DNA from: Maricaulis sp.
Lineage (GTDB): Bacteria; Pseudomonadota; Alphaproteobacteria; Caulobacterales; Maricaulaceae
Assembly: GCF_039978735.1 (NCBI RefSeq)
Contig: NZ_JBDWAS010000058.1
Coordinates: 525-64,524, forward strand
Reading direction: 5' to 3'
DNA length: 64,000 nucleotides
A program made the translations under genes and the position numbers. This document shows positions 41,813-64,000 of this stretch, one piece after another. Each line of letters starts with the position of its first letter. Positions within the stretch are counted from its first letter, which is position 1. The notes beneath the pieces are model-generated. The model ran no database searches. It saw nothing but the letters and a program-made list of their open reading frames with translations, and was not told the origin of the DNA.

Positions 41813-41843
41813 TGTCACATGGCTTCTGGCAAGTTGTCACATG
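41813..41843 (+). promoter_or_regulatory. 9-nt perfect direct repeat spaced 22 nt, at the expected position of the ECF-dependent promoter
   Basis: TGTCACATG at 41813-41821 and again at 41835-41843. GGTAAC lies at 41802-41807. The element sits between the FecR stop and the TBDR start. Confidence 0.35.
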
Positions 41844-41908
41844 AGGGGGATCGGGCGTCCCCGTATCGAGGTGCGGGGATGCGCGTCAGCGGCAGGACAT
41901 CAGTCAGG

Positions 41909-44900: not shown

Positions 44901-45070
44901 TCGCCGGCGCTGATGGCCGGCTGCAGATTTTCGGCGGCATCAACAATGTCTTCCACGATTACGGCCCCTTCCTGCCAAGTGGCACGGAAAGCGGCGGCCG
45001 GCGCAATTTCAGTCCGGGCTATGATGCAGCCGGGCGGCGCGTCTATGCCGGTATCCGGGCGCGCTGGTAG
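41909..45070 (+). CDS. TonB-dependent receptor with N-terminal STN signalling domain (FecA-like transducer)
   Basis: Track ORF 41819..45070. I prefer the ATG at 41909 (MKGVRAALLGALLPVMMPHVPAVSQE); 41879 is also possible. STN: FDIPAGPLGPALSRFALVTSHQLL..LLAGTGLEFSTVD. Plug: IEISTGGASAVYGSDAIAGVVNFVL. C-terminal GIRARW. Confidence 0.85.
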   Translation: MKGVRAALLGALLPVMMPHVPAVSQETQTAAPDAFSFDIPAGPLGPALSRFALVTSHQLLAESHLVAGVQTRGAEGQYSAEEGLERLLAGTGLEFSTVDARTHVLGRRSGNPSAGVSTDARPGIVRLSGHPVSDDPAGTPAASAYIDPQEVILVTGSRFERAGRAAVLPVQVIGRTALETSGAIEIGEMIASQSPATLEFSNASTHLSAQNAGLSSIGLRGLGTTRTLVLIDGRRTVANSGNASRFGSDTIPAEFVERVEISTGGASAVYGSDAIAGVVNFVLIDSLEGGRLLAQAGMTQDGGGQYHVLSATQGWRFGDGRGRLLFNVTRDHMRRIGAEDRDWAQVPVSLAGDGETLEADLSSYTPGGRFIGYDFWYDEAGLQTDFDIAVDGYDTRSFATISVPRERDLFALKLDYDFDGGVSAYFTGLFSHSESLSSREAQTAYYNERFGLDNERIGMIPVDHPLVPEPIRQAALDGGLSGITWRRRFSELGEEYRRNDRTTQRFWAGLQGEAGIWSWDIALGHGRYDQDQLRSGEVNYARIRNALDIEADPASPGNYRCVSAAARAAGCAPLDMFGVNAISAEAADYIRATDRLEVEVEQWTLGGSALGDVALPDGRVISLAWGAEHRVDSQRTRGDAAALNRETGYVGVPDLDAVGHASEVFAEALVPVVPDRFDVTAAVRLAHYDIDRVGLVGSYRLGGVWSPSDALAFRGQVSRAQRAPSLTELYSGPRGDYDTVSDPCHGVTGASSGRIAENCRSEPGIARAIAEDGIYEQTITSVYAPNSGNPDLEEERSDAVTLGLVYTPVRAEGLSLSVDLYDIRVSGAISSLSSRALLSECYGAPVAISANRYCADIQRGETGQLLEMQNRVANLNEIRSAGADVTLDYAWQVSPASIWAGDWDLRILYAYTDRLEQVFEGSDGDVSRSVWDGEVGAPHHRWTARLGVTRGPWLVQWRVRYEGAAIDGHDRAAKANAGDMLFLEIDPWMQHDLHVRYLAGADGRLQIFGGINNVFHDYGPFLPSGTESGGRRNFSPGYDAAGRRVYAGIRARW

Positions 45071-45195
45071 GCCGCCGCCATCTTTTTCTCAAAATTTGTG
45101 ACAACCCGGGTACCCGATGCGGTCCCTTGCGTGTCTCCCCTCTACCAACACTACGCGCAGTCGAGGGGACGGTGCGAAAAACAAGGGGATTTCCG

Positions 45196-48099: not shown

Positions 48100-48124
48100 G
48101 TCTCCTCCTCCGAGACGATTGGGT

Positions 48125-48165
48125 CCGGCACTCTGTCCTGTCTTTATGGCAGGGCGGGGTGCCGG
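48125..48165 (+). terminator. long imperfect hairpin followed by a T-run after the TBDR gene
   Basis: CCGGCAC..(internal CTGTCCTG/CAGGGCGG pairing)..GTGCCGG followed by GCACTTTTCC. Confidence 0.5.
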
Positions 48166-48219
48166 GCACTTTTCCAACGCTTTGACTGGACGGCGCCGGC
48201 AAGGCGTCGCGAGGATAAC

Positions 48220-50304
48220 ATGTTCCGCCAATTCGCTTCTTCCGCCGTGGCCGCGATGCTGGCCGCGAGCGCATCCCTGCATCCTGCCTTCGCCGAAGAC
48301 CCGCTGCCTGCAACGCTCGCAGCCCGGCCGGACATCCCGGTAGCCGACCGGTATATGACACCGGTCGAGATGGTGGCGCTTCGCAGTATCGGCGAGGTCT
48401 CGCTGGCCGATGACGGCCGGCGCGCCATCGTCACGCTGACCCATGCCGACTGGGTCGAGGACGAACGGGCCGACCGGTACTGGGTGCTTGATATCGCCTC
48501 CGGCGAGCTGGCCTATCTGTCCGGCTTCGACGAGGCTGATACGGTGGCCTTCTCGCCCGACGGCCGGATGCTGGCGGCGGACCAGCCGCCGGAGGGTCGC
48601 AAGGAGGACGAGGTCTTCCTGGCCAATGCCGATGGCAGCGATCTGCGCCGGCTGACCCGGCATCCCACCGCTGTGCAGAGCATGTCCTGGTCGCCGGACG
48701 GGCAGTTCATCTACTACCTGGCGACCGACGATCTCAGTGACGAGCAGCGCGACCGGCGTGACCGGGTCGAGCTGATCGAGCCCTATTTCGAGACCACGCG
48801 GCACCGTCATCTCTGGCGGGTCGATGTGGACAGCGGCGCACGCCAGCGCATGACGCAGGGCGACTGGTCGGTGCGCAGCTATGATGTGGCTGCCAGCGGC
48901 GCCGTGCTGATCCGGATCGCGCCGGCCGCCGATCTGGACTCCGCCTATGACAGCGAGCTGTGGATCAGCGAGACGCCCGAGCCGGGCGGCCAGTTCCGCC
49001 GCATCACCGCCAACAACTGGATGGAAAGCAATGCCCGCCTGTCGCCCGATGGCCGGCGGATTGCCTACAAGGCGCGCGTCAGCGGCGCCGGGCTGGACTA
49101 TGTGCAGAACAATCTCATCGTCATCGATCTGGAGACCAATGAAAGCCGGATCCTGACCGATGGTGCCGATTTCGAAGTGGACGGCATGGCCTGGCTGCCC
49201 GATGGCGAGAGCCTGGTCATGGCGGTGCAGGCCGGCGTGCGCTCCGGCCTGGTGCGGATCGATGCAGAAAGCGGCGAGGTGACGGCGCTGTCGCTGCACG
49301 ATCGCCACCTGGCCGACTGGTCGCTGGATGCGGCGGGCAATGCCGTCGCCCTGTTCGAGACGCCGACGACGAATGGCGATCTCTGGCGGATCACGGCCGA
49401 CGGTACGGAAACCCGCCTGACGACGATCGGTGCGGCCACCGTCGCGCCCTATCACCTGCCCGAACAGCAGCTGATCCGCTGGCCCAGCCATGACGGCCAG
49501 GTGATCGAAGGTTTCTACTTCCCGCCGCTCGTCCACACCGGTGACGGTCCGCCGCCCCTGGTGGTGCAGGCCCATGGCGGGCCGCGCTCGGCAGACGAGT
49601 TCGGCATGTGGAAATGGGGCCGCTATGTGCCGGTGATGACGGCGCAGGGCTATGGCGTGCTGTGGGTGAATTATCGCGGCGGTACCGGTTATGGCGATGC
49701 CTTCATGCAGGCCATGCACGGCACCTATTTCGCCCATGCCGACCGCGATGTGATGAGCGGGGTCGATTATCTGGTCGAGACCGGCCGCGCCGATCCGGAG
49801 CAGCTGATCATGTCGGGCTGGAGCGCCGGCGGTCACATGACCAACCGGCTGATCACCACGACCGACCGTTTCCGAGCGGCCTCGTCCGGGGCCGGGGCTG
49901 TCGACTGGGCAGTGCACCATCTCACCAGCGACACCCGCCAGGCCCGCCGTCTGCTGTTCGGCGCCGATGCCTGGGCCGAGGGGGCGCTGGAAACCGTGTT
50001 CCAGCCGCAATCCCTGCTGCGGGATCTCTACCGCGTGACCACGCCGACCCTGATCTTTGCCGGCGAGGATGACGAGCGGGTGCACCCGTCACAATCCATC
50101 ATGCTCTACCAGGCGCTGCGCAATCTGGGTGTCGAGACGCGGCTCTACCTGGCGCCGGGCGAGGGGCATTCCTTCTCGGACCTGTCTCACCGCCTGTTCC
50201 GCATCAATGCCGAACTGGACTGGTATGCCCGGCATCTGGGGCGGGAAGCCTATGAGTGGCAGCCTCTGCCCGTCGATCCCGATGACGAGGATGACGGTGC
50301 GTAA
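48220..50304 (+). CDS. S9-family serine peptidase (prolyl-oligopeptidase / dipeptidyl-peptidase-like with N-terminal beta-propeller)
   Basis: 694 aa. Signal peptide MFRQFASSAVAAMLAASASLHPAFA. Nucleophile SGWSAGGHMT. C-terminal FAGEDDERVHPSQS and GEGHSF. Confidence 0.85.
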   Translation: MFRQFASSAVAAMLAASASLHPAFAEDPLPATLAARPDIPVADRYMTPVEMVALRSIGEVSLADDGRRAIVTLTHADWVEDERADRYWVLDIASGELAYLSGFDEADTVAFSPDGRMLAADQPPEGRKEDEVFLANADGSDLRRLTRHPTAVQSMSWSPDGQFIYYLATDDLSDEQRDRRDRVELIEPYFETTRHRHLWRVDVDSGARQRMTQGDWSVRSYDVAASGAVLIRIAPAADLDSAYDSELWISETPEPGGQFRRITANNWMESNARLSPDGRRIAYKARVSGAGLDYVQNNLIVIDLETNESRILTDGADFEVDGMAWLPDGESLVMAVQAGVRSGLVRIDAESGEVTALSLHDRHLADWSLDAAGNAVALFETPTTNGDLWRITADGTETRLTTIGAATVAPYHLPEQQLIRWPSHDGQVIEGFYFPPLVHTGDGPPPLVVQAHGGPRSADEFGMWKWGRYVPVMTAQGYGVLWVNYRGGTGYGDAFMQAMHGTYFAHADRDVMSGVDYLVETGRADPEQLIMSGWSAGGHMTNRLITTTDRFRAASSGAGAVDWAVHHLTSDTRQARRLLFGADAWAEGALETVFQPQSLLRDLYRVTTPTLIFAGEDDERVHPSQSIMLYQALRNLGVETRLYLAPGEGHSFSDLSHRLFRINAELDWYARHLGREAYEWQPLPVDPDDEDDGA

Positions 50305-52905
50305 CTACCGCGTGCCGATCTGGCGCGGGGTGAAGGTGGGGGCCGGCAGGTTGACGGCTCCCGCCGCCTTTGCGGCATCGAGGAAGGCCACCAGTTCCGG
50401 CACCGGCAGCGGCTTGGACAGGCCGAAGCCCTGTGCCCAGTCACAGCCCAGCAGTTTCACGATCGCCAGGCCTGCATCGTCCTCGACGCCTTCGGCGACG
50501 AGATCGAGACCCAGATTGTGGGCGAGGTCGACGGTCGACTTCACCACCATGCGGTCGCGTTCCGACGTCGCCACATGCTGCACGAAGGCCCGGTCCAGCT
50601 TCAGTTCGCGCGCCGGCAGCGTGCGCAGATAGGCCAGCGAGGACAGGCCCGAACCATAATCGTCGATCGACAGGCGCACGCCCGCCTCATTGATGCGGTT
50701 CAGGTTGGCGATGGCCAGTTCCGGATCGTCCATCACGGCGGTTTCCGTGATCTCGAACGTGATCCGGCCGGCGGCGGTCTTGATCAGATCGAGGGCGATA
50801 TTGACGAAATCCGTATCGCAGACGAGTGCGCCGGAAATATTGGTCGCAACGCAGATATCGTGACCAGCTTCGGCGAAGCGGCGCTGGTCGTCGATCACCC
50901 GCTGGATGGCCCATTCGGTGAGCGCGCGGATATGCCCCATCTCCTCGGCCTGATGGATAAAGGCCGCCGGCGGAATGAAGCCCTGCTGCGGATCGAACCA
51001 GCGGCACAGCGCTTCGGCGGACTGGTAGCGGCCGGTGCGCAGGTTGAGCTTGGGCTGGTAGTGCATGCTCATATCGCCCGACCGGGTCGCCTGGAGCATG
51101 CGGGTCATCAAGGTCAGATTGCGCGACGGATCGCCGTACTGGCCAGCGTCGAACAGGGCGGCGGCCTCGCGGTGCTGCTGCGCCTGGTGAACGGCGATCG
51201 TGGCGTGGCGGATGCACAATTCCGGATCGTCGCCAATCCCGACACCGCCGCGGACCGAGACATCGATATCCAGATCCGCAATCCGGACGGGCTCGGCGAG
51301 CCGTTCCACACAGGCCCGGGCCAGCGCCAGGGCGTCGTCGGCCGTGCGGCAGGTCGCCAGAATGCCCAGCATGCCGGGCGAGATGCTGTAGACCGTGTCG
51401 ACCGGCTCGATCTCGCGCAGGCGGGCGGCCATGCGGGCCTGGATCTCGGCGAATTTGGTGAAGCCCAGAACGCTTTCCAGATGCTTGCGGCGATTGAGCT
51501 GCAGGGCGATGACATTCGGCGGCACGTCCGAACGCACGGCCCGCTCTTCAAGGCTGCGCTCAAGCGCGGCGCGTGACGGCAGGCCGGTCTGGGAATCCTC
51601 GTACAGCGTGCGGGCCAGGATCCGCGCACGCTCCTTGGCCGAGCGCTGGCGCACGACGGCGACGATCAGCAGCATCAGCACCAGGGCCAAGGCCGCGGTC
51701 GCGACGATCACGCGCTGGCTGGCACGCGAGCTTTGCAGGGCGAGCTCGCGCTGCAGGCCCTCGATCCGCAGCCGGTCGATCTCCATTTCCTGGATGGCGA
51801 AGTCGAACTGGGCGTTGATCAGCGCCGTATTGGCCGAGGTGGCAAACTCCGCGCGGTCGTCGTCGAGGCGCTTGAAGGCACGCAGGTGTGCCATGGCGTG
51901 ACGCCAGTCGCCTTCGGACTCGTACAGCTGGGCCGCCATCTCGTGATAGGTGATGTAGGCCTGCGTGGTCGTTGTCAGGTCGCGTCCTTCGAAGACGCGT
52001 TCCATGTGCTGGATGGCGGTCGAGATATCGCCGCGGGCATAGGCAATCTGGGAGCGCACGCCCCAGAAGAAGCGCGTCCATTCCAGGTCCGGCATGTCGC
52101 TGACACGCTCGAAGGCCAGGTCGATACTGGCAGTGGCATCGTCATAATGACCGGCCTCGGCCTGCATGATCGCCAGGTTTTCGAGAATCCGGGCCTCCAG
52201 CGACGCGCTCTCCATGTCGCGCGCGAGGGTCAGCGCCGCCTCGAAGGCCAGTTCCGCCTCGTCATAGCGTTCCAGCTGGGTCAGCGCATTGGCGATATTA
52301 TTGTTGGCCGACAGGCCGAGCGCCGGGTCCTGATAGCGTTCAAGCGCATGACGGAAATACTCGACCGCGCGCTCATACTGGCGGGCATCGGTGTAGAGCG
52401 AGGCAATGCCCTGCAGGGTGATGGATTCGCTGCGCGGCTCGCCGATATCGCGATAGATGTCATAGGCATTCTGGTAGTTTTCCAGCGCCTCGCCATGGCC
52501 GCCGAGCATCTTGTTGATGCGGCCGAGCGCGGTGAGGATATCTGCGTGAAGCTTGCTGTTCGGCGGATTTTCGCCCAGCGCCTCGAGCGCGCGTCTGGCG
52601 ACGGGCAGGGCGTCCTCGAACCGCGCCAGGCGCAGAAGGGCTTCGGCCTGGAGCCACCAGACGGTTGCCTGGGCCGTGGCCGGATCGGTGAAATCGGTGA
52701 TGGTGGGGATCAGGGCTTCGGCCGTGCGGGCGCGCTCAAGCGCTTCCTGCGGCGAGGCCATCATGACCGCCTGGGCCGATTCAACGGCCTGACGATAGCT
52801 GCTTGCGGGCGGGGCATCGTCCGTGCGGACATGACCGGACGCAGGTTCGCACACTGCACCGAGCAGCAGACACACGCCTGCAATCGCCAGGATTAGCCGC
52901 TGCAT
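50305..52905 (-). CDS. periplasmic-TPR / TM / degenerate GGDEF / EAL signalling protein
   Basis: 866 aa. Signal peptide, then TPR-like repeats. TM VIVATAALALVLMLLIVAVV. GGDEF-domain start DSQTGLPSRAAL, but no GG[DE]EF motif. EAL domain: QPKLNLRTGRYQSAEALCRW, DDYGSGLSSLAYL. Confidence 0.8.
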   Translation of the reverse strand: MQRLILAIAGVCLLLGAVCEPASGHVRTDDAPPASSYRQAVESAQAVMMASPQEALERARTAEALIPTITDFTDPATAQATVWWLQAEALLRLARFEDALPVARRALEALGENPPNSKLHADILTALGRINKMLGGHGEALENYQNAYDIYRDIGEPRSESITLQGIASLYTDARQYERAVEYFRHALERYQDPALGLSANNNIANALTQLERYDEAELAFEAALTLARDMESASLEARILENLAIMQAEAGHYDDATASIDLAFERVSDMPDLEWTRFFWGVRSQIAYARGDISTAIQHMERVFEGRDLTTTTQAYITYHEMAAQLYESEGDWRHAMAHLRAFKRLDDDRAEFATSANTALINAQFDFAIQEMEIDRLRIEGLQRELALQSSRASQRVIVATAALALVLMLLIVAVVRQRSAKERARILARTLYEDSQTGLPSRAALERSLEERAVRSDVPPNVIALQLNRRKHLESVLGFTKFAEIQARMAARLREIEPVDTVYSISPGMLGILATCRTADDALALARACVERLAEPVRIADLDIDVSVRGGVGIGDDPELCIRHATIAVHQAQQHREAAALFDAGQYGDPSRNLTLMTRMLQATRSGDMSMHYQPKLNLRTGRYQSAEALCRWFDPQQGFIPPAAFIHQAEEMGHIRALTEWAIQRVIDDQRRFAEAGHDICVATNISGALVCDTDFVNIALDLIKTAAGRITFEITETAVMDDPELAIANLNRINEAGVRLSIDDYGSGLSSLAYLRTLPARELKLDRAFVQHVATSERDRMVVKSTVDLAHNLGLDLVAEGVEDDAGLAIVKLLGCDWAQGFGLSKPLPVPELVAFLDAAKAAGAVNLPAPTFTPRQIGTR

Positions 52906-52970: not shown

Positions 52971-53002
52971 TAAACCAAAACCCCTTCGCGATTGCGAAAG
53001 GG
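52971..53002 (-). terminator. rho-independent terminator of the autotransporter gene
   Basis: The minus strand reads CCCTTTCGC-AATC-GCGAAGGG followed by GTTTTGGTTTAT. Confidence 0.65.
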
Positions 53003-53050
53003 CCTTGATTCATCTTGCAAATCACGTCCGCCGGTGGGCGGAAATGATGT

Positions 53051-56000
53051 TTAGAAGCGCATGCGGAAGCTGGCGCCGGCGGCCAGGTCGTTCCGGGCCC
53101 GGTCGAAGGCATTGCCGGCGACCTGCTGGCGGGCGAACAGGCTGGCTTCGCCCATAATGCCGGGCAGCGGCGTGGAATAGAGGAACTCGGTATAGAGCGG
53201 ACGCTCGCCACCCAGTTCCCACACCTGGCTGTCAAAGCCCAGCGCCCCGGTCTCCCGGTCGGTCACGCGGGCTGCCGTGTAACGCAGGGAGCCCGTCTCC
53301 ACATGCAGCGGCTGCATCAGGCTGACGCGGATGGCGTCGGCTTCACCGGCGATGCCGGAATACTGGATGCTCATTTGCGCCGCGGTCGAGACGATATTGT
53401 CGTCGAGATCCAGCAGGCCGCTGTCGAACGCGGTCTGACGGGTCACGGCGGCCGTGGTCGAGGCGCTCAGCCGCAGGCGCGGCGTGAGTTCGGTGTCCAC
53501 GCCCATGGAGAAGGCGCTGGTATCGGCACCGCCGGAGAAGTCCAGCGGACCGGTGCCCTGGGCCCCCAGAAGGCCGGTGGTTTCATGCAGCTGGGTCACT
53601 GCACCATGCAGCGTCGTCGTGTCCGACAGGCGGTGTTCAATCGCCACGTTCAGCGCCATTGCCTGATAGGCGGCCAGACCGTCATGCAGCGGCCGCTCCT
53701 CGCCCGTGCCGGGGATCAGATAGGTCCGCTCTTCGTGATTCATGGTCGAGCCGACTGTCAGGCGCGTCCGTTCGGAGAGCTGGAAGCCGCTGGCGGCAAA
53801 GACGCCGCCCGATGCGAAGCCGAGGACAGGGTTCACGCCGCCGGTCTCCGGACGGTGATCCGAGAACAGGCCGAACCCGTCATTCCCCGTCAGGGCGAGC
53901 GCCCCTTCACCGACACCCAGCATGACATCGCGGCCCGTGCTGCGGTCGGCAAAGCGCAGGCCTGTCTGGAAGCCCAGCTCGCGCGACAGGCCGCGGCCCT
54001 GCAGATCGGTGGCGCCGGCAAAGGCGGTGACTTCCAGATTGCCGCGGCGCAGGACCGGGCGGTCCATCAGGCCGGCATCGGTGAAGCTGGCACCCGAGCT
54101 GCCGGTGGTGCGTTCGTAGATATAGGTCTCGGCATAGATGCTGGAGACATTGTCGGACAGGCTGGAACCGGCCGTCAGCGCGTCCACCGAGATTTCGAAA
54201 TCGCGGAAAGTGTCGTTGACGTTCTCGAACAGCACGACGGTGTCGCTGGAGCCGTAGCGGAAGCGCAGGCGGCCGCCATCGATCATCACGTCGCTGGCCG
54301 AAACCTGGCGGCCGCGGCGGTCGACGACGTAGAGATCGCCGGCATCGATGGGCGCCATGGCGCCGGCCACGTTCAGAAGGCCGTGGCCGTAGACAGCGTC
54401 GACACCCTCATCGCCCAGATCGGTGGCAGATTGCAGCAGGACATCGGCCAGGTCGGCGCCTTCCAGCCAGCCCCAATGCCCCTTGACCAGCGCGGCGGCG
54501 CCGGAAACGAGCGGTGCGGCGAAGGACGTGCCGGACACGCGGACCACACCGCCATCGCTATCATCGACCAGGATCAGCTCGCCCGGAGCGACCAGGAAAC
54601 GGTCCATCAGGCGATGGCCGGGCTGGCAGCTGCCGCGCACCGTCAGGCACGCATCGCCCGGACGGTTGGAGAAGCTGGAGATATGGCCGCCCGGATCGAC
54701 AGAGCCAACAATCAGGAGGTTCTCGACGGTGTTGACGCCGGTCCAGTCCACATCGACCGTCTGGGCAGCGCCGTCATTGCCGGCGGCCAGGACGAAAAGC
54801 GTGTCGTCGCCGAACAGGCGCACGAAGGGGCTGGTGAAGATACGCTCCCATTCCGGCGCCAGCGTCCAGCCGGACACGCCCATCGACAGGTTCACGATGT
54901 CCGTCTGCATCAGGGCGAGATAGCTCATCCCCAGTTCGACCGTGCCCCAGTCGGTGGTCTGGGTGTCGTCATAGGGGTCGAAGGAGATGAGGTCGGCATT
55001 CTGGGCCACACCCATCACGCCGCTGCCGTCGAGCGGTGCGTTGATCAGGCTGCGCACAGCGGCGCCGTGATGGAAGTCACGCGAGCCGAAATCGCCTTGG
55101 CTGAGCTGGAAATAGCCGTCGCCCGACCGCGTGGAGAAGTCCATCAGGCCGATGCGGACGCGATCGCCGCCGCCATACATCTGCGAGAGCGCCGGGTACC
55201 AGTTGGTCGCCGCCATCCAGTGATCGACATGGTCGATACCGGTATAGGACATCAGATTGTCGTAGAAGGTCAGGAAAAACTCGGACCGGTCGGCGGCATC
55301 CATGCTCGCCAGAGAGGCCGGATTGGCCGGATCGATGCCGAAATCGTCGAGCAGCGCGTTGAGGAAAGCCTCGTTCATCGACTTTCCGGTCGCGCTCTGG
55401 ATGGCCTCGCCGAAGACGTTTTCCGCCTCGTCGAAGATCAGGTTGAGACCGTCGGCGATCGGCTGGTAGTCGCCGGTTTCCGGGTCGATCTGGTCCCAGC
55501 CGAGATTCATCACACCCCAGACACCGCCGGCGGTCTCCCAGAACGGATTGATGTCCCCGCCGAACGGGTTGATGTCCCCGCCGAAGGGATTGATGTCGCC
55601 ACCCACGGTCGAGAGATCGCCCCAGAACGGATTGATGTCGCCACCGAAGGGGTTGATGTCGCCACCGAAGGGGTTGATGTCGCCGCCAAAGGGATTGATG
55701 TCCCCACCGAACGGATTGATGTCACCGCCAAAGGGATTGATGTCGCCCCAATAGGGTTCGACATTGCCCCAGAACGGGCTGACGAAACCGTAGAACGGGC
55801 TCTGGGACGCCTGGAACGGATTGATGTCGCCACCGAAGGGGTTGATGTCCCCGCCGAACGGATTGATGTCGCCACCGAAGGGGTTGATGTCCCCGCCGAA
55901 CGGATTGATGTCGCCGCCAAAGGGATTGATGTCCCCGCCGAACGGATTGATGTCGCCGCCAAAGGGATTGATGTCCCCGCCGAACGGATTGATGTCACCA

Positions 56001-56209
56001 CCAAAGGGGTTGATGTCACCACCAAAGGGATTGATGTCCCCGCCGAAGGGATTGATGTCCCCGCCAAAGGGATTGATGTCGCCGCCCATGGCCCGGACGG
56101 GCCCCTGGCCGGTGGCTTCCTGCGCCAGAACGCCCTGGCTGAAGATTGCGGAAGACACGACGAGCGCGGTTGCAGCCGCACCGCTCAACAACTGACGTTT
56201 CATGGACAT
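53051..56209 (-). CDS. S8 (subtilisin-like) serine protease autotransporter with an N-terminal heptad-repeat array
   Basis: The track ORF extends to 56278 (TTG). I prefer ATG 56209 or 56203 (MSMKRQLLSGAAATALVVSSAIFSQGVLAQE). S8 triad contexts: IGLMDFS, FHHGAAV, SGTSFAAPLVSGAAALV. C-terminal ~280-aa beta-barrel-like region ends AGASFRMRF. Confidence 0.85.
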   Translation of the reverse strand: MSMKRQLLSGAAATALVVSSAIFSQGVLAQEATGQGPVRAMGGDINPFGGDINPFGGDINPFGGDINPFGGDINPFGGDINPFGGDINPFGGDINPFGGDINPFGGDINPFGGDINPFGGDINPFGGDINPFQASQSPFYGFVSPFWGNVEPYWGDINPFGGDINPFGGDINPFGGDINPFGGDINPFGGDINPFWGDLSTVGGDINPFGGDINPFGGDINPFWETAGGVWGVMNLGWDQIDPETGDYQPIADGLNLIFDEAENVFGEAIQSATGKSMNEAFLNALLDDFGIDPANPASLASMDAADRSEFFLTFYDNLMSYTGIDHVDHWMAATNWYPALSQMYGGGDRVRIGLMDFSTRSGDGYFQLSQGDFGSRDFHHGAAVRSLINAPLDGSGVMGVAQNADLISFDPYDDTQTTDWGTVELGMSYLALMQTDIVNLSMGVSGWTLAPEWERIFTSPFVRLFGDDTLFVLAAGNDGAAQTVDVDWTGVNTVENLLIVGSVDPGGHISSFSNRPGDACLTVRGSCQPGHRLMDRFLVAPGELILVDDSDGGVVRVSGTSFAAPLVSGAAALVKGHWGWLEGADLADVLLQSATDLGDEGVDAVYGHGLLNVAGAMAPIDAGDLYVVDRRGRQVSASDVMIDGGRLRFRYGSSDTVVLFENVNDTFRDFEISVDALTAGSSLSDNVSSIYAETYIYERTTGSSGASFTDAGLMDRPVLRRGNLEVTAFAGATDLQGRGLSRELGFQTGLRFADRSTGRDVMLGVGEGALALTGNDGFGLFSDHRPETGGVNPVLGFASGGVFAASGFQLSERTRLTVGSTMNHEERTYLIPGTGEERPLHDGLAAYQAMALNVAIEHRLSDTTTLHGAVTQLHETTGLLGAQGTGPLDFSGGADTSAFSMGVDTELTPRLRLSASTTAAVTRQTAFDSGLLDLDDNIVSTAAQMSIQYSGIAGEADAIRVSLMQPLHVETGSLRYTAARVTDRETGALGFDSQVWELGGERPLYTEFLYSTPLPGIMGEASLFARQQVAGNAFDRARNDLAAGASFRMRF
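55541..56086 (-). repeat. 26 in-frame 21-nt tandem units encoding GGDINPF heptads
   Basis: 13 perfect GGDINPF units (55814-56086). Three degenerate units follow (QASQSPF, YGFVSPF, WGNVEPY). Then 10 more units (WGDINPF, 5x GGDINPF, WGDLSTV, 3x GGDINPF; 55541-55750). The heptad register continues with WETAGGV, WGVMNLG and WDQIDPE. Confidence 0.95.
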
Positions 56210-56405: not shown

Positions 56406-57155
56406 ATGGAGCCCATGCAGGACACGCAGGGCCAGAGCGGTCGAGACCGGGACACGGCGTGTTTTCGCACGCGCGGCCTGACGAAAGTCTATGGCAGCGG
56501 TGCGTCTGCTGTGCATGCCCTGCGTGGCGTCGATCTGGACATTCCCGAGGGCGATCTGGTGGTCCTGCTGGGGCCGTCCGGTTCGGGAAAGTCCACGCTG
56601 CTCAACATACTGGGCGGTCTGGACCGGCCGACCGGCGGTGAATTCCTGTTCCGGGGTGAGAATCTCACTCAGGCCTCGACCCGGGCGCTGACCCTCTACC
56701 GGCGCCGGCATGTCGGCTTCGTCTTCCAGTTCTACAATCTGATGCCCTCGCTGACGGCGCGGGAAAATGTCGAGCTGGTGACCGAGATCGCGCAGAACGG
56801 TCTGTCCGCCGGCGAGGCGCTCGAGCTGGTCGGTCTGGAAAAGCGTGCCGATCATTTTCCCGCCGAACTGTCCGGCGGCGAGCAGCAGCGGGTCGCGATC
56901 GCGCGGGCCATCGCCAAGCGGCCCGAGGTCATGCTGTGCGACGAACCGACCGGCGCGCTCGACAGTGCGACCGGTATCCGCGTGCTGCAGGCGCTCAAGA
57001 CCGTCAACGAGACGCTGGGCGCGACGACGATCATCATCACCCACAATGCCGGCGTCGCGGACATGGCGCATCGCGTCATCACCTTTTCCGACGGGCAGGT
57101 CGGCAATGTCCGCGTCAACACCGAACGCGCCAATCCGGAGGATCTGGCATGGTAG
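56406..57155 (+). CDS. ABC transporter ATP-binding protein (MacB/DevA-type)
   Basis: 249 aa. Walker [13 protein letters not shown], signature [14 protein letters not shown], Walker [13 protein letters not shown]. Confidence 0.9.
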
Positions 57156-59551
57156 GCGGCGGTCGGTTCGACATGGCGCGCCTGGTGCCGCGCAAGCTCG
57201 ACCGAAAACTCCTGCGTGACCTCTGGGCGACCAAGATGCAGGCCATCGCGATCGCCTTTGTCGTGGCTGCCGGTATCGCGGTTCATGTCGTGGCGGCCGG
57301 CATGCTCGATTCGCTGCAGGAAACCCGGCGTGCGTATTACGACCGCTACCGGTTTGCCGATGTCTGGGCGCCGGTGGTGCGGGCGCCCGACCGGCTCCTC
57401 GCCGGTATCCGCGACATTCCCGGCGTGGCCGCTGCCGAAACGCGGGTGACATCGCATGTCCTGTTCGACATTCCCGGCATGGACGCGCCCGCCAGCGGCC
57501 AGGCGATTTCCCTGCCGGACAACGGCCGCCCCGCCGTCAATCACATCCATCTGACCGAAGGCCGTCTGCCCCGCCGCGGCCAGCGCGACGAGGCCGTTCT
57601 GCTGGACGCCTTTGCCCGGGCCCACGGCATTGCGGTCGGGGACACCGTCGCCCTGACGCTGCATGGCGGACGGGAGGAGTTGCGGATAGTCGGGATCGCG
57701 CTTTCGCCGGAGCATGTCTATGCGGTGGCGCCGGGGCAGCTTGTGCCGGATGCACGGCTGTTCGGCGTTGTCTGGATGGGGCGCGAGGCCCTGGCCCAGG
57801 CCGTCGACCGCGACGGCGCTTTTACCGAGGCCGTTGTGACGCTGGAGCCGGGCTATCCGGAGGCCGCGGTGACCGGCGCCCTGGACCGGCTGCTGGCGCC
57901 CTATGGCGCACCGGGTGCCTACGGCCGGGAGCAGCAGATCTCCGACGCCTTCATCTCCAGCGAGATCACACAGCTGTCGACCATGGCGCGCGTGCTGCCG
58001 CCGATCTTTCTCGCCGTTGCCGCCTTTCTGGTGAATGTCGTCCTCACCCGGCTCGTGGCGATGGAGCGGACCGAGATCGGCCTGCTCAAGGCGTTCGGCT
58101 ATCACGATGGCGACGTGGTCTGGCACTATGTGAAGTTCGCTGGTGCCATCGGGGTGCTGGGCCTGGCGATCGGGCTCGGCCTGGGCACCTGGCTCGGCCG
58201 GCAGATGGCGGTGCTCTACACCGAATACTACCACTTTCCCTTCCTGATCTTCCGTCTCGAGGCGGGGGTCTATCTGTCGGCCTGTCTCGTGACGGCCCTC
58301 GCCGTGGGCGGCGGTGGCGCCCTGGCCGCCTGGCGGGCCGCCCGGCTCGATCCGGCCGTGGCGATGCGCGCGCCGCCGCCGCCCGACTATTCCAAGTCCA
58401 TCGGCGCCGGCCTGACGCGCTGGCGGATGCTCGACCGCCAGACCCGGATGGTGTTCCGCCAGATCCTGCGCTGGCCGGGCCGTTCCGCTTTCACCCTGGT
58501 CGGCGTGTCCGTGTCCGGCGGGCTTTTGATCGGCACGCTCTTCTTCCTCGACAGTGTCGACGTGATGATCGACGTCTATTTCAACAGCGCCAACCGGCAG
58601 GACGTCTCCGTGTCCTTTGTCGAGCCGCGCTCCTGGGAGGCCTTTCATTCGCTGCGCCGCATGCCGGGCGTGATCGAGGCCGAGCCCGTGCGGCAGGTCG
58701 CGGTGCGGCTGCGGCATGGCGCCGCCGAGGAGCGCACGGCGCTGTCCGGTGTGCCGCGCGGGGCGCGCCTGTCGCGCATGGTCGATCTGGACAATCGCAG
58801 CGTCGAGGCGCCGCCGGGGGCCCTGGTCATGTCGCAGGACCTGGCCGACAAGCTGTCCATTGCCGCCGGCGATCTTATCGAGGTCGAGGTCACCGAAGGG
58901 CGCCGTCCGGTTTTCGAACTGCCGGTCTCGGCCGTCACCACGACCCTGGTCGGTTCCGGACTGCAGATGGAGATCGGCGACCTGAACCGCCTGCTGGGCG
59001 AGGGGCGGGTGCTGTCGGGGGCGTCGCTGCGGGTCGACGCCCATGAAACCCGTGCGCTCTATGCCCGGCTCAAGGATACGCCGGGCATTGCCGGCGTCTC
59101 GCTGCAGAGCGAGGCCGAGGAGCGCTTCGTGGAGCTGCTGGACCAGAGCCTGGGCACCTCGATCGTCATCTATACCGGGTTTGCGGCCCTGATCGCGATC
59201 GGCGTGGTCTACAACAGTGTGCGCATCTCGTTTTCCGAACGCGAGCATGAACTCGCCGTGCTGCGCGTCCTCGGTTTCACGCGCGGCGAGGTCGCCTATG
59301 TGCTGCTCGGCGAGATCGCCATCCTGACGCTGCTGGCCCTGCCGGTCGGCGCACTCATGGGAACCGGGCTGGCCTGGGGCTTCTCCCAGGCGATGAGTTC
59401 GGACCTGTTCCGCCTGCCCTTCGTGATCAGCCCGCGCACTTATGGCTATGCGGCCGGTGTCGTGCTGGTGATCGCGATATCGTCCGCCCTCATGATCCGC
59501 TCCCGGCTGGACAAGCTGGACATGGTCGCCGTGCTCAAGTCCGGCGAATAG
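57149..59551 (+). CDS. ABC transporter permease with two FtsX modules (YbbP/DevC-like, ~800 aa)
   Basis: In frame in track ORF 56936..59551. The ATG at 57149 overlaps the ATPase gene end. FtsX cores: [23 protein letters not shown] and [23 protein letters not shown]. Confidence 0.85.
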
Positions 59552-59563
59552 GAGATCATTCGC

Positions 59564-60769
59564 ATGAAACTCAGCTTCCGAACCGTGTTCTGGGGACTGG
59601 CCGCACTGATCGTCGTCATCCTTCTGGTGCTGGCCTTCCGCCCTCGGCCATTGCCGGTCGATATGGGCGAGGTCATGAGCGGGCCCATGTCGGTCACGGT
59701 GAGCGATGAGGGGCGGACGCGGATCCGCGATGTCTATGCCGTCGCCGCCCCGGTCGGCGGCCGCCTGCTGCGGGTGGCAGCCGAAGCCGGCGATGCCGTT
59801 GCGGCCGGCGATGTGGTGGCCCGTCTCCTGCCCAGCGAGCCGGCTTTCCTGGATGCCCGCACAGAAGCCGAGGCGCGCGCTGCCGTCGATCTCGCCGAGG
59901 CCGGCCTCGCCGCATCCCGCGCCGATGCCGAGAGCACCGCCGCCACGCTGGAGCTCGCACGGTCGGAACATGCGCGTATCCGCTCGCTGTTCGACAGCGG
60001 GATCGCCTCCCAGGCGCAACTCGATCGCCTGGCCAGCGAGCTGCGCGCGGCCCGGGCGGCGGACAACCGGGCGCGGGCCTCGGTCAATATGCGGCAGGCG
60101 GAGGTGGAAGCCGCGCGTGTCCGGCTGCTCGAGCCGGATGGCGCGCCGGGCGGCAATGGCAGCGTGCTGGACATCCGGGCGCCGATCGGCGGTGTCGTGC
60201 TGCGGGTGCTGCAGGAAAGTGAAACGCCGCTCGCGCCGGGCGCCGTCGTGATGGAAATCGGCGATCCGGCGGACCTGGAGGTCGTGGCAGAATTCCTCTC
60301 CACCGAAGCCGTGCAGGTTGAAGCGGGCGCCGCCGCCCGGATCACCGGCTGGGGTGCTGGAAACGACCCGCTTTCAGCGCGCGTGCGCCGGATCGAGCCC
60401 TATGGCTTCCTGAAGGTCTCGGCGCTGGGGGTCGAGGAGCAGCGGGTCAATGTGATCCTCGATTTCGACGCGCCGGCCGACAGCTGGCGGCGGCTGGGCC
60501 ATGGTTACCGGGTCGAGGCGGCGATCACCGTGTGGGAGACCGGCGAAGCGGTTCAGGTGCCCGTCGCGGCCCTGTTCCGCGAGGATGGCAGCTGGGCCGT
60601 CTACCGGGTCGAGGACGGCCGGGCGCGTCTGACCCCGGTCGAGATCGGCCACGACAATGGCGAGACTGCGGAGATCCTGTCCGGGATCGAACCGGGGCGC
60701 CGCATCATCCTCTATCCCGGTGCAGGCCTGTCCGACGGCGTTCGCGTGGCGCTGCGCGATCCGGAATAA
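59564..60769 (+). CDS. HlyD-family periplasmic adaptor
   Basis: 401 aa. N-terminal TM FWGLAALIVVILLVLAF. Ala/Arg-rich coiled coil. VLDIRAPIGGVVLRV. Confidence 0.85.
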   Translation: MKLSFRTVFWGLAALIVVILLVLAFRPRPLPVDMGEVMSGPMSVTVSDEGRTRIRDVYAVAAPVGGRLLRVAAEAGDAVAAGDVVARLLPSEPAFLDARTEAEARAAVDLAEAGLAASRADAESTAATLELARSEHARIRSLFDSGIASQAQLDRLASELRAARAADNRARASVNMRQAEVEAARVRLLEPDGAPGGNGSVLDIRAPIGGVVLRVLQESETPLAPGAVVMEIGDPADLEVVAEFLSTEAVQVEAGAAARITGWGAGNDPLSARVRRIEPYGFLKVSALGVEEQRVNVILDFDAPADSWRRLGHGYRVEAAITVWETGEAVQVPVAALFREDGSWAVYRVEDGRARLTPVEIGHDNGETAEILSGIEPGRRIILYPGAGLSDGVRVALRDPE

Positions 60770-63807: not shown

Positions 63808-64000
63808 TTTTCCCTCGTAGGCATGGATTGAGACAGGCGCATTCGCGCCCCGACGCGCGGTCCCCCCGCTCGTCTCCATCCACGCTGTCATGGGGGCGTG
63901 TGACACTTCGCCAGCAAAGCGTCGATCATCGCGGAAAACGCGACCAGCGGTCTTGGTCGCGGCGAAAAGTCCGGAATTCTTCGGTGAACGGTCCGAAAAG

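What the first reader, a model, noticed from the sequence alone, without database searches (positions are those of the whole stretch)
55541..56086. 26 (extended register about 29) GGDINPF heptads replace the usual propeptide of an S8-protease autotransporter
Directly after the signal peptide the passenger begins with 13 perfect GGDINPF units. Three degenerate heptads follow, then 10 more units. Trp-initiated variants (WGDINPF, WGNVEPY, WGDLSTV, WETAGGV, WGVMNLG, WDQIDPE) keep the 7-residue register. I do not recognise this repeat as a described family.

Ideas to test:
- A Gly/Asp-rich Ca-binding solenoid with a 7-residue rather than the RTX 9-residue period.
- A multi-copy peptide cassette released by the adjacent subtilisin/kexin-like domain.
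- A surface array of NPF short linear motifs. NPF is the ligand of eukaryotic EH domains, so this could mimic a host or algal motif. This idea is the most speculative.
Basis: partly seen in the sequence, partly recalled or inferred. Interest (0 to 1): 0.7.

Follow-up and report, generated by a model that had tools for sequence, protein, structure and literature searches.

The report
Conserved heptad array on S8 protease
A real, strongly selected run of 26 seven-residue repeats heads an outer-membrane-anchored subtilisin-type protease whose gene, in most alphaproteobacterial loci examined, lies beside a periplasmic TPR sensor gene, which points to an undescribed protease-linked signalling module rather than a simple linker.

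Summary
Window 55541-56086 (minus strand) encodes 26 in-register heptads, 21 of them perfect GGDINPF. All differences among the perfect units are synonymous, and copy number differs between seven related assemblies.

The repeat is the hallmark of a large, unannotated alphaproteobacterial family (more than 1100 proteins, at least 363 species). The family core is aromatic-G-x-[I/L/V]-x-[P/A/S/T]-F. The window's Gly at position 1 is a rare variant.

AlphaFold2 gives no fold for the array (pLDDT below 50). Asp3 and Asn5 are not universal. This argues against a general Ca-binding solenoid and against NPF/EH-domain mimicry.

"Autotransporter" is not supported as family membership. The C-terminal roughly 400 aa model as a large, porin-like beta-barrel with no autotransporter sequence signature.

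New finding: the gene is paired, co-oriented, with a membrane sensor that has a periplasmic TPR domain. The sensor's output is GGDEF-EAL or histidine kinase. The pairing was seen in 64 of 80 loci, and the reverse test agrees.

Best reading (inferred, about 0.35): the array is a disordered, multivalent I-x-P-F motif array. It would serve as tethered substrate or pro-region of its own S8 domain, and as ligand or source of heptapeptides for the TPR sensor.

No Pfam, NCBIfam or literature match was found for the repeat.

The parts
53051..56209 (-). Whole gene: signal peptide, heptad array, helical domain, S8 peptidase and C-terminal beta-barrel (1052 aa). It is 100% identical to an NCBI entry named 'S8 family serine peptidase [Maricaulis sp.]'.
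56120..56209 (-). Predicted Sec signal peptide (MSMKRQLLSGAAATALVVSSAIFSQGVLA|QE).
   Evidence: By inspection of the translation. AlphaFold2 models a helix at residues 3-19.
55541..56086 (-). Heptad array of 26 units: 21 GGDINPF, WGDINPF, WGDLSTV and three diverged central units (QASQSPF, YGFVSPF, WGNVEPY). The three diverged units correspond to the family's most conserved central units, ...GDINPF-YGDISPF-WGDISPF.
   Evidence: pLDDT is below 50 with no secondary structure.
55478..55540 (-). Three Trp-initiated terminal heptads (WETAGGV, WGVMNLG, WDQIDPE). They are counterparts of the family-conserved WGDIGPF-WGDINAF-WGDIDPF. They are modelled as an alpha-helix joined to the folded helical domain.
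   Evidence: One search gives helix 221-236 with pLDDT 83-90.
55172..55477 (-). Conserved all-alpha domain containing the FFLxFYDxLM motif. It has no Pfam match and no sequence match to any solved structure. It is not an I9 propeptide by sequence.
54344..55171 (-). Peptidase S8 catalytic domain. Asp, His and Ser are invariant and the oxyanion Asn is nearly invariant in 116 homologs (alignment positions D355, H379, S560, N476).
53054..54247 (-). C-terminal beta-barrel region of about 400 aa ending in Phe (…SFRMRF). It contains the strongly conserved loop SDHRPETGGVNPVLGFASGG.
   Evidence: No Pfam or PDB sequence hit.
52971..53042 (-). Two hairpins downstream of the stop codon. The first is at 53042..53027. 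The second is at 53002..52981 and is followed by TTTTGGTTT. Together they look like a possible terminator between the S8 gene and the sensor gene.
   Evidence: read by eye for the minus strand
50305..52905 (-). Conserved partner gene. It encodes a signal peptide, a periplasmic TPR module (aa about 30-420), a coiled coil, a transmembrane helix (VIVATAALALVLMLLIVAVV), a weakly matching GGDEF domain and an EAL domain.
   Evidence: Synteny.

Best explanation
The array is the defining N-terminal module of an uncharacterised alphaproteobacterial protein family. The family architecture is signal peptide, then 4 to about 40 heptads of the form aromatic-G-x-[I/L/V]-x-[P/A/S/T]-F, then a helical domain, an active S8 protease and a large outer-membrane beta-barrel. 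This protein works together with the adjacent inner-membrane sensor, whose periplasmic domain is a TPR array.

I propose that the heptads are an intrinsically disordered, multivalent short-linear-motif array rather than a folded solenoid. Each unit presents I-x-P-F. That places hydrophobic residues at P4 and P1 and a small residue or Pro at P2, which are the positions subtilisins read. The solvent-facing P3 is free to vary.

On this model the array acts as a tethered pseudo-substrate or sacrificial pro-region of its own protease domain. Either the intact array or the released x-G-D-I-x-P-F heptapeptides would be what the neighbouring TPR domain binds. Protease state would thereby be coupled to c-di-GMP turnover (in this window) or to histidine-kinase signalling (in other lineages).

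Shown: the array is real and selected at the peptide level, the motif is conserved, no fold is predicted, the catalytic triad is intact, a barrel is present, and the gene pairing is reciprocal. Inferred: self-cleavage, TPR binding, and the compartment where this happens. The periplasm is favoured because the sensor domain is periplasmic and the protease joins strand 1 of an apparently porin-sized barrel.
For: - All 21 perfect units differ only synonymously (15 distinct 21-mers), and copy number varies among seven related assemblies while the peptide stays perfect.
- In 1868 units from 118 homologs, I4 is 91%, P6 is 80% (plus A 14%), F7 is 90% and D3 is 78%. G2 is 100% only because it was the search anchor. 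Positions 1 and 5 are variable.
- Metagenomic variants such as YGNLRPF, YGKVNPF and WGDLESF keep only Ar1, G2, Phi4 and F7.
- A heptad profile searched against 1.84 billion representative proteins finds only 437 hits. Essentially all long hits with a recognisable heptad carry the helical, S8 and barrel domains.
- AlphaFold2 with a 116-sequence alignment gives pLDDT 25-45 and no secondary structure for residues 1-219, but above 85-90 for the rest of the protein.
- The catalytic Asp, His and Ser are invariant.
- A co-oriented TPR-sensor gene is adjacent in 64 of 80 S8 loci. Starting from the TPR module, 45 of 80 metagenome loci have the S8 gene adjacent, only 5 loci with adequate flanks lack it, and 30 are too short to tell.
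- The sensor output is swapped between GGDEF-EAL and HisKA-HATPase(-REC) while the periplasmic TPR module is kept. This is the signature of a conserved input module.
- Precedent: intracellular subtilisins are inhibited by an N-terminal [LVI]-[IFLV]-P-[YFH] motif that lies across the active site (PMC6220982).
- From established knowledge: suc-AAPF-pNA is the standard subtilisin substrate, and S1 and S4 are the main hydrophobic specificity pockets.
Against: - There is no direct evidence of cleavage or of TPR binding.
- The strictly kept Gly2 and the aromatic position 1 are not explained by subtilisin subsites. They would equally suit a structural repeat.
- Three hydrophobic residues in every seven is unusual for a disordered region.
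- In most genera the units have position-specific identities conserved across genera (consensus), which hints at a defined structure or ordered function.
- The charge test gave no complementarity between heptads and the TPR module. Spearman rho was +0.63, with both tracking habitat.
- S1-pocket residues could not be mapped reliably at about 23% identity.
- The ISP motif is Phi-Phi-P-Ar, not Phi-x-P-Ar.
- Some heptad-bearing paralogs have no adjacent sensor gene (L006, L011, L019, L063).
- If the protease is surface-exposed, a periplasmic sensor could see only re-imported peptides.
Confidence: 0.35

Rival explanations
1. The heptads fold into a narrow beta-solenoid or beta-roll with two heptads (14 residues) per turn. 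It might be stabilised by Ca2+ in marine lineages. It would serve as a rigid binding or spacer domain, and AlphaFold2 simply fails on it.
For: - Gly2 is strictly kept, and the periodic hydrophobic positions 1, 4 and 7 suit an inward-facing core.
- Solved 14-residue-per-turn rolls exist, such as the grass antifreeze protein and the YadA head (own knowledge).
- The TGNIEPL heptads of homolog P0118 score 29.5 bits against Pfam LbR_Ice_bind, whose cut-off is 30.
- Expansion in the window occurred in 42-nt two-unit steps.
- Unit identities are position-specific across genera.
Against: - pLDDT is below 50 with no strands across the whole array, despite 116 aligned homologs.
- The window's own repeat gets no Pfam hit.
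- Copy number varies from 8 to 14 between near-identical strains and from about 4 to more than 40 across the family.
- Whole lineages have no acidic residue (YGNLQPF, YGSINPF) or are basic (YGNLRPF, YGKVNPF), so Ca2+ binding cannot be general.
Confidence: 0.2
2. The array is a disordered, aromatic-rich sticky arm or entropic spacer. It would capture substrates or surfaces such as proteins, particles or envelope polymers for the protease. It would have no specific relation to the active site or to the TPR sensor. The gene pairing would reflect the protease domain acting on the sensor, or being regulated by it.
For: - No fold is predicted.
- Copy number is plastic.
- Positions 3 and 5 tolerate acidic, neutral and basic residues that track habitat.
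- Periplasmic TPR or Sel1 regulators controlled by proteolysis are known in Alphaproteobacteria (ExoR-ExoS), and TPR adaptors of periplasmic proteases are known (NlpI-Prc, LbcA-CtpA) (own knowledge).
Against: - A generic sticky spacer would not need zero non-synonymous change in 21 units.
- It would not need about 90% conservation of I4 and F7 across orders.
- The motif is essentially confined to this one protein family.
Confidence: 0.2
3. The array is a secretion or folding aid. It could be a periplasmic chaperone-binding or anti-folding segment, or a substitute for the I9 intramolecular chaperone. It would keep the protease inactive and unfolded until the barrel is assembled, and would then be discarded.
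For: - The array sits at the position of a pro-region, directly after the signal peptide.
- No I9 propeptide is detectable.
- Aromatic-rich peptides are preferred ligands of periplasmic chaperones such as SurA (own knowledge).
Against: - It does not explain the conserved TPR-sensor partner.
- A separate conserved helical domain is better placed to act as the folding or inhibitory pro-domain.
- Other outer-membrane proteins need no such array.
Confidence: 0.13
4. The array is a surface display of NPF motifs that mimics ligands of eukaryotic EH domains.
For: The window's unit contains N-P-F.
Against: - Asn at position 5 occurs in only 33-36% of family units, and Ser, Asp, Gly, Glu, Gln, Arg and Lys are all common there.
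- The hosts are free-living marine, soil and freshwater Alphaproteobacteria.
- Surface exposure is itself unproven.
Confidence: 0.01
5. The array is an assembly artefact or a meaningless low-complexity linker.
For: Short-read assemblies can miscount tandem repeats. Copy number does differ between assemblies.
Against: - Seven independent assemblies, including an isolate genome, share the same block layout.
- Units are distinguishable at wobble positions.
- The motif is conserved in at least 363 species.
Confidence: 0.01

Closest known systems
Subtilase autotransporters (type Va: Ssp, SphB1, NalP, EprS, fusolisin)
   Same: Both have a signal peptide, an S8 catalytic domain and a C-terminal outer-membrane beta-barrel ending in an aromatic residue.
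   Different: - There is no PF03797 beta-domain.
- The NCBIfam EprS and fusolisin models touch only the catalytic core, far below their cut-offs (24.6 versus 1700 bits; 11.6 versus 999 bits).
- The modelled barrel is porin-sized, and its best Foldseek hits are porins.
- There is no beta-helical stalk.
- The N-terminal heptads and the helical domain are unique to this family.
Pro-peptide of intracellular subtilisins (LIPY/F motif, [LVI]-[IFLV]-P-[YFH])
   Same: Both are short hydrophobic-Pro-aromatic motifs N-terminal to an S8 domain. The ISP motif lies across the active site and inhibits the enzyme (PMC6220982). Solved ISP structures are among the better sequence matches of this S8 domain.
   Different: The ISP motif is single-copy, cytoplasmic and of the form Phi-Phi-P-Ar. 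Here there are 4 to about 40 tandem copies of Phi-x-P-F in an exported protein. Binding to the active site was not tested.
Multi-copy peptide precursors processed by S8 proteases (yeast alpha-factor and fungal Kex2-processed repeat peptides; cyanobactin PatE with PatA/PatG)
   Same: Both combine tandem copies of a short peptide with a subtilisin-family protease.
   Different: In the known systems the precursor and the protease are separate proteins and the cores are flanked by recognition sequences. Here the units are contiguous and in cis with the protease. No product has been shown.
RTX nonapeptide repeats (GGxGxDxUx Ca2+ beta-roll)
   Same: Both are Gly/Asp-containing short tandem repeats in an exported protein.
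   Different: The period is 7, not 9. There is no HemolysinCabind hit. Asp is dispensable in many lineages. AlphaFold2 predicts no roll.
Porphyromonas gingivalis FimS-type sensor kinases with a periplasmic TPR domain
   Same: The partner protein has the same layout in its kinase versions: a periplasmic TPR module, a transmembrane helix and HisKA-HATPase. It gives 135 bits to NF053520 over nearly the full model.
   Different: The score is far below the family cut-off of 600 bits. In the window the output is GGDEF-EAL. No protease partner is described for FimS to my knowledge.
Periplasmic protease plus TPR or Sel1 partner pairs (NlpI-Prc, LbcA-CtpA, ExoR-ExoS) and LapD-LapG
   Same: These pair a periplasmic or outer-membrane-anchored protease with a TPR-like protein, or with a GGDEF-EAL receptor that controls a periplasmic protease.
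   Different: The protease classes differ (S41, cysteine). None has a heptad array or a fused barrel. The relationship here is inferred only from synteny.

Membership tests
Peptidase S8 (subtilase), PF00082 | A match to the family profile above the curated cut-off | tested here: met
   Pfam E = 5.1e-27, 95.4 bits against a cut-off of 21.8. A profile of 116 homologs hits subtilisins in the PDB at E = 3e-29. Foldseek TM-score (normalised to target) is about 0.8.
Peptidase S8 (subtilase), PF00082 | Asp-His-Ser catalytic triad and oxyanion Asn present | tested here: met
   D355, H379 and S560 are invariant and N476 is at least 90% conserved in 116 homologs. The motifs are GLMDFS, HHGAAV, AAGNDG and GTSFAAP.
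Classical (type Va) autotransporter | C-terminal autotransporter beta-domain (PF03797) detectable by sequence | tested here: not met
   No Pfam family at E <= 10 for aa 621-1052. None in 17 homologs. The profile of the region finds no solved structure at E <= 10.
Classical (type Va) autotransporter | 12-stranded barrel with a pore-spanning alpha-helical linker | tested here: inconclusive
   The AlphaFold2 model shows about 16-18 strands from residue about 655 to the end, with a 20-residue helix after strand 2. The top 50 Foldseek hits are porins, BamA and TonB-dependent receptors, with no Va translocator. Model coordinates could not be inspected.
Classical (type Va) autotransporter | The passenger is translocated to the cell surface | not testable with these tools
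   This needs protease-accessibility or fractionation experiments.
Subtilisin I9 propeptide (intramolecular chaperone) | A match to PF05922 between the signal peptide and the catalytic domain | tested here: not met
   No Pfam hit for aa 42-244 or aa 245-375 at E <= 10. The region models as all-alpha.
RTX / HemolysinCabind Ca2+-binding repeats | Nonapeptide GGxGxDxUx repeat with a conserved Asp | tested here: not met
   The period is 7. There is no Pfam hit. Asp3 is replaced by S, T, N, Q, H, K or P throughout whole lineages.
EH-domain ligand (NPF short linear motif) | Asn-Pro-Phe conserved as the functional core | tested here: not met
   Asn is present at position 5 in 33-36% of 1868 units. 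Variants include RPF, KPF, SPF, DAF and ESF.
Grass antifreeze beta-roll (PF21300 LbR_Ice_bind) | A match above the gathering score | tested here: not met
   The window repeat gives no hit. Homolog P0118 (TGNIEPL units) gives 29.5 bits against a cut-off of 30.
Proposed family: alphaproteobacterial heptad-S8-barrel protein with a TPR-sensor partner | N-terminal Ar-G-x-Phi-x-P-F heptads, an FFLxFYDxLM helical domain, an S8 domain and a barrel with the SDHRPETGGVNPVLGFASGG loop | tested here: met
   All four features are present in the window protein and in the 116-sequence alignment.
Proposed family: alphaproteobacterial heptad-S8-barrel protein with a TPR-sensor partner | An adjacent, co-oriented gene for a sensor with a periplasmic TPR module | tested here: met
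   In the window the partner is at 50305..52905 on the minus strand, 145 nt downstream. The pairing holds in 64 of 80 loci in the forward test and 45 of 80 in the reverse test, where only 5 loci with adequate flanks lack it.

The most novel reading that the evidence does not exclude
This could be a self-contained peptide-signalling module of Gram-negative bacteria. An outer-membrane-anchored subtilisin would carry its own multi-copy heptapeptide cassette (x-G-D-I-x-P-F). It would cut the cassette at each Pro-Phe and release 15-26 identical ligands per molecule. A dedicated periplasmic TPR sensor would read these ligands, for example through a free C-terminal Phe, and would set c-di-GMP levels or drive a phosphorelay. 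Protease and pro-signal in one polypeptide, with a cognate periplasmic TPR receptor, has no described counterpart.
Probability: 0.15. Interest if true: 0.85.

Novelty: new variant of a known kind. Interest (0 to 1): 0.62.

Why it matters
Subtilases, outer-membrane barrels, TPR sensors and tandem repeats are each familiar. This combination is not.

- The repeat family is unannotated and under very strong peptide-level selection.
- It is fused to an active S8 protease and a porin-sized barrel.
- It is genetically locked to a periplasmic TPR sensor whose output domain is swapped between c-di-GMP turnover and histidine kinase.
- The module occurs in at least 363 species of marine, freshwater and soil Alphaproteobacteria. 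These include the Maricaulis, Hyphomonas-group, Caulobacter, Erythrobacter, Novosphingobium and Rhizomicrobium lineages.

If the heptads are the ligand or substrate that links protease and sensor, this would give a testable input signal for a widespread orphan sensor class. Periplasmic TPR kinases such as FimS have no known ligand to my knowledge. It would also be a new way of coupling envelope proteolysis to lifestyle switching.

Even if the array proves structural, it would define a new 7-residue repeat fold.

Tried and rejected
- Pfam, NCBIfam and PHROGs on the whole protein and on each region found only the S8 core.
- Two literature string searches covering ten heptad variants returned 0 papers. 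Keyword searches found nothing on this family or on the gene pair.
- AlphaFold2 on the full length with an alignment gave no fold for the array.
- Foldseek with the full model returned only subtilisins. A domain model was needed to see the barrel.
- A sequence profile of the barrel region against the PDB gave nothing. The helical domain against the PDB also gave nothing.
- I tried mapping the S1 and S4 pocket residues onto subtilisin. The alignment around Gly166 is unreliable at about 23% identity, so no specificity call was made.
- I tested charge complementarity between the heptads and the TPR module. The correlation was positive (rho +0.63), reflecting habitat-wide acidity rather than binding. 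It neither supports nor excludes an interaction.
- The other neighbours (MacB-type ABC/HlyD cluster, S9 peptidase, TonB-dependent receptors) are conserved only in the two same-species loci, so they are not part of the system.
- Atypical long hits of the heptad profile (P0171, P0219, P0220, P0231, P0248, P0253, P0267 and others) are unrelated 7-mer repeats.
- I considered covariation of heptad P1/P2 residues with pocket residues and dropped it. P and A co-occur within single proteins, and the Leu7 variants were seen in only two sequences.

Full report
**1. The observation**

The finding lies in one gene on the minus strand, window 53051..56209. It encodes 1052 aa from MSMKRQ. It is 100% identical to an NCBI protein named only "S8 family serine peptidase [Maricaulis sp.]".

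Tandem Repeats Finder reports a single array at exactly 55541-56086, with period 21, 26.0 copies and score 526. Translated in register, the array reads as follows:
- 13 x GGDINPF
- QASQSPF, YGFVSPF, WGNVEPY, WGDINPF
- 5 x GGDINPF
- WGDLSTV
- 3 x GGDINPF
- then WETAGGV, WGVMNLG, WDQIDPE

The array starts 11 residues after a plausible signal-peptidase site (VLA|QE, by inspection).

**2. Real and selected, not an artefact**

The 21 perfect units are written with 15 different 21-mers. Every difference is at a wobble position. Only 14 of the 63 possible single-base changes in the unit are synonymous. Even the minimum of six mutational events would all be silent with a probability of about 1e-4 (my arithmetic).

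Units 6-9 and 10-13 are duplications of two-unit (42-nt) blocks.

Seven independent assemblies of the same species group were compared: the window, M. virginensis VKM B-1513, a Maricaulis MAG and four metagenome contigs. They share the same three-block layout. The first block has 8, 10, 13, 13, 14 or 14 units in the six that include it (L083 is cut at the contig end). The second has 4-5 and the third 2-3. Every GGDINPF unit is perfect at the amino-acid level. Copy number is therefore plastic while the peptide is held fixed.

**3. A family hallmark**

The protein has more than 1100 homologs in the protein collection. It has relatives in at least 363 species-level genomes. The named genomes are almost all Alphaproteobacteria:
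- Maricaulis, Hyphobacterium, Oceanicaulis
- Hyphomonadaceae, Caulobacter, Phenylobacterium
- Parvularcula, Aquisalinus, Rhizomicrobium
- Erythrobacter, Novosphingobium, Croceibacterium, Parasphingorhabdus

Almost all carry heptads in the same place.

In 1868 units from 118 proteins the position frequencies are:

| Position | Residues |
|---|---|
| 1 | W 37%, Y 27%, H 10%, R 7%, G 5% |
| 2 | G (search anchor) |
| 3 | D 78% |
| 4 | I 91% |
| 5 | N 36%, S 25%, D 17% |
| 6 | P 80%, A 14% |
| 7 | F 90% |

Metagenomic relatives add YGNLRPF, YGKVNPF, WGDLESF, WGNLDTF and HGTLNPF. The universal core is therefore aromatic-G-x-[I/L/V]-x-[P/A/S/T]-F. The window's Gly at position 1 is a rare variant, shared with close relatives that carry GGDIDPF.

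In most genera the units are not homogenised. They have position-specific identities conserved across genera, for example ...GDINPF-YGDISPF-WGDISPF-WGDINPF... and a terminal WGDIGPF-WGDINAF-WGDIDPF. The three Trp units are the counterparts of the conserved terminus.

A profile of five heptads was searched against 1.84 billion representative proteins. It finds only 437 proteins at E <= 1e-3. The long ones with a recognisable heptad all carry the family's helical, S8 and barrel domains. The exceptions are unrelated 7-mer repeats and one cadherin-like protein with SGDLDPF units.

No Pfam or NCBIfam model and no paper in the held library matches the repeat.

**4. Anatomy of the protein**

AlphaFold2 with 116 homologs gives a mean pLDDT of 79.
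- Residues 1-219 (signal peptide and array) score 25-45 with no secondary structure.
- From residue about 220 confidence jumps above 83. The last Trp heptads form a helix (221-236) that leads into a conserved all-alpha domain containing the FFLxFYDxLM motif. This domain has no Pfam or PDB sequence match.
- The S8 domain follows. Its Asp, His and Ser are invariant.
- About 400 residues of beta-strands end the protein, finishing in Phe.

"Replaces the propeptide" is only half right. No I9 domain is detectable, but a conserved helical domain occupies that position in addition to the heptads.

**5. Is it an autotransporter?**

By sequence, no. There is no PF03797 hit in the window protein or in 17 homologs. 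A profile of the region finds no solved structure. The NCBIfam EprS and fusolisin autotransporter models touch only the catalytic core, far below their cut-offs.

A separate model of aa 622-1050 (pLDDT 75) aligns over 370-420 columns to 16-18-strand porins: Omp32, BpsOmp38, OmpK36 and OmpT, with TM-scores of about 0.5 normalised to the target. It also aligns to BamA and TonB-dependent receptors. No type Va translocator appears in the top 50.

The barrel seems to start about 35 residues after the protease domain. It has a 20-residue helix after the second strand and a near-invariant loop, SDHRPETGGVNPVLGFASGG.

I could not inspect the coordinates, so the strand number and topology remain open. 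If the barrel is even-stranded with no lumen-crossing segment, the protease and the heptads would face the periplasm.

**6. The conserved partner**

The gene 145 nt downstream on the same strand (50305..52905) encodes, in order:
- a signal peptide
- a TPR module of about 390 aa
- a coiled coil
- a transmembrane helix
- a weakly matching GGDEF domain
- an EAL domain

Homologs of the TPR module lie next to the S8 gene, always co-oriented, in 64 of 80 genome loci. It is immediately downstream in 54 loci and upstream in 10.

In the reverse test I started from the TPR module in metagenome contigs. Of 80 loci, 45 have the S8 gene adjacent. Only 5 loci with adequate flanks lack it, and 30 are too short to tell.

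The cytoplasmic output varies while the periplasmic TPR module is kept:
- GGDEF-EAL in Maricaulis and in a Qipengyuania (Erythrobacteraceae) locus, L033
- HisKA-HATPase with or without a receiver domain in Rhizomicrobium, Aquisalinus, Caulobacter, Croceibacterium and Ponticaulis
- sometimes a separate EAL gene upstream of the S8 gene

The nearest named architecture is the P. gingivalis FimS periplasmic-TPR kinase, at 135 bits against a cut-off of 600.

The other neighbours in the window are conserved only in same-species loci. These are the MacB-type ABC/HlyD cluster, an S9 peptidase and TonB-dependent receptors.

**7. How it most likely works**

Shown:
- a peptide-level-selected, copy-number-plastic array with no predicted fold
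- an intact protease
- an outer-membrane barrel
- a reciprocal gene pairing with a periplasmic TPR sensor

Inferred: the heptads are a multivalent short-linear-motif array. Counting back from Phe7, the conserved positions are P1 (Phe), P2 (Pro or a small residue) and P4 (Ile, Leu or Val), while P3 varies. That is the pattern expected for a peptide lying in subtilisin's S1, S2 and S4 subsites with P3 facing solvent. This rests on established knowledge: suc-AAPF-pNA is the standard substrate, and S1 and S4 are the main pockets.

A precedent exists. Intracellular subtilisins are kept inactive by an N-terminal [LVI]-[IFLV]-P-[YFH] motif bound across the active site (PMC6220982).

TPR domains are peptide binders. 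I therefore favour (about 0.35) a model in which the array is a tethered pseudo-substrate or sacrificial pro-region of its own protease. Either the array or the released x-G-D-I-x-P-F peptides would be the input of the neighbouring TPR sensor.

Several observations weigh against this model:
- It does not explain the strictly kept Gly2 or the aromatic position 1.
- The hydrophobic density of the array is high.
- Unit identities are position-specific.
- The charge test gave no heptad-TPR complementarity (rho +0.63, driven by habitat).
- There are no cleavage or binding data.

**8. The rivals**

- A folded 14-residue-per-turn beta-roll (about 0.2) is favoured by the periodic hydrophobics. It also has a near-threshold hit of one homolog's TGNIEPL units to the grass antifreeze roll (29.5 against 30 bits). 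AlphaFold2 does not see it. A general Ca2+ dependence is excluded by lineages with neutral or basic units.
- A generic sticky or spacer arm (about 0.2) fits the disorder and plasticity. It does not fit the extreme sequence constraint.
- A folding or secretion aid (about 0.13) does not explain the sensor partner.
- NPF/EH-domain mimicry is effectively refuted, because Asn5 is not conserved.
- The assembly-artefact reading is effectively refuted by the seven concordant assemblies.

**9. Verdict**

The repeat is genuinely undescribed, and the peptide-cassette idea stays alive. The Ca-solenoid, NPF-mimicry and "autotransporter" labels are not supported.

The main added value is the discovery that the heptad-S8-barrel protein and a periplasmic TPR sensor form a conserved, widespread two-gene module of unknown function.

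I rate it a new variant of known kinds, with interest 0.62. The more radical reading is a cis-encoded multi-copy heptapeptide signal with a cognate periplasmic TPR receptor, to which I give about 0.15 probability.

Noticed in passing
window 50305..52905 (-): This gene encodes a membrane sensor with a periplasmic TPR module, a weakly matching GGDEF domain and an EAL domain. Its TPR module is a reciprocal, co-oriented neighbour of the heptad-S8 gene across Alphaproteobacteria. Its output domain is swapped for a histidine kinase in other lineages.
   Followed up: yes
window 55814..55981 (-), units 6-13 of the array: The DNA shows a higher-order 42-nt period. Units (6,7) equal (8,9), and units (10,11) equal (12,13). 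The first block therefore grew by duplications of two-unit blocks.
   Followed up: partly
L051, L055, L058, L070 (Erythrobacteraceae/Novosphingobium); L027 and P0121 (Hyphomonadaceae): Some lineages have super-repeats. One type alternates basic and acidic heptads (xGRIRxF + xGDIDPY, a 14-residue period). Another has 21-residue units (two xGDIDAF/xGTIDPF heptads plus one xGKSxxx heptad).
   Followed up: no
P0195 (1254 aa, residues about 900-970): This is the only hit outside the S8 family with a genuinely similar motif. It has ten SGDLDPF/SGDTDPF units in a protein with C-terminal cadherin-like and Big_9 domains.
   Followed up: partly
window 53054..54247 (-); alignment A2: The barrel region contains a near-invariant loop, SDHRPETGGVNPVLGFASGG, and a 20-residue helix after the second strand. 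Together they may form a plug or constriction. Neither matches any described motif that I could find.
   Followed up: no
window 52971..53042 (-): Two hairpins follow the S8 stop codon. The second (53002..52981) is followed by TTTTGGTTT. The S8 gene and the sensor gene may therefore be transcribed separately despite their conserved adjacency.
   Followed up: partly
window 56406..60769 (+): A divergently transcribed MacB-type ABC ATPase, FtsX permease and HlyD adaptor cluster lies here. It is conserved next to the S8 gene only in the two same-species genomes.
   Followed up: yes
window 41819..50304 and 60829..63906: Three TonB-dependent receptor genes (41819..45070 +, 45127..48099 +, 60829..63906 -) and an S9 prolyl-oligopeptidase gene (48220..50304 +) surround the locus. 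This suggests a neighbourhood for protein and peptide scavenging.
   Followed up: partly
(loci L081-L160 compared with L001-L080): Heptad charge tracks habitat. Units are acidic (GDI[ND]PF) in marine lineages. They are neutral or basic (YGSINPF, YGNLRPF, YGKVNPF) in the lineages that the genome records name as Rhizomicrobium or Caulobacter, and in many metagenome contigs whose origin was not checked. The partner's TPR module shifts in the same direction.
   Followed up: partly
L006, L011, L063; P0053 and P0078 (both from Maricaulis sp. CAU 1757): Some genomes carry a second heptad-S8-barrel paralog that has no adjacent TPR sensor gene.
   Followed up: no
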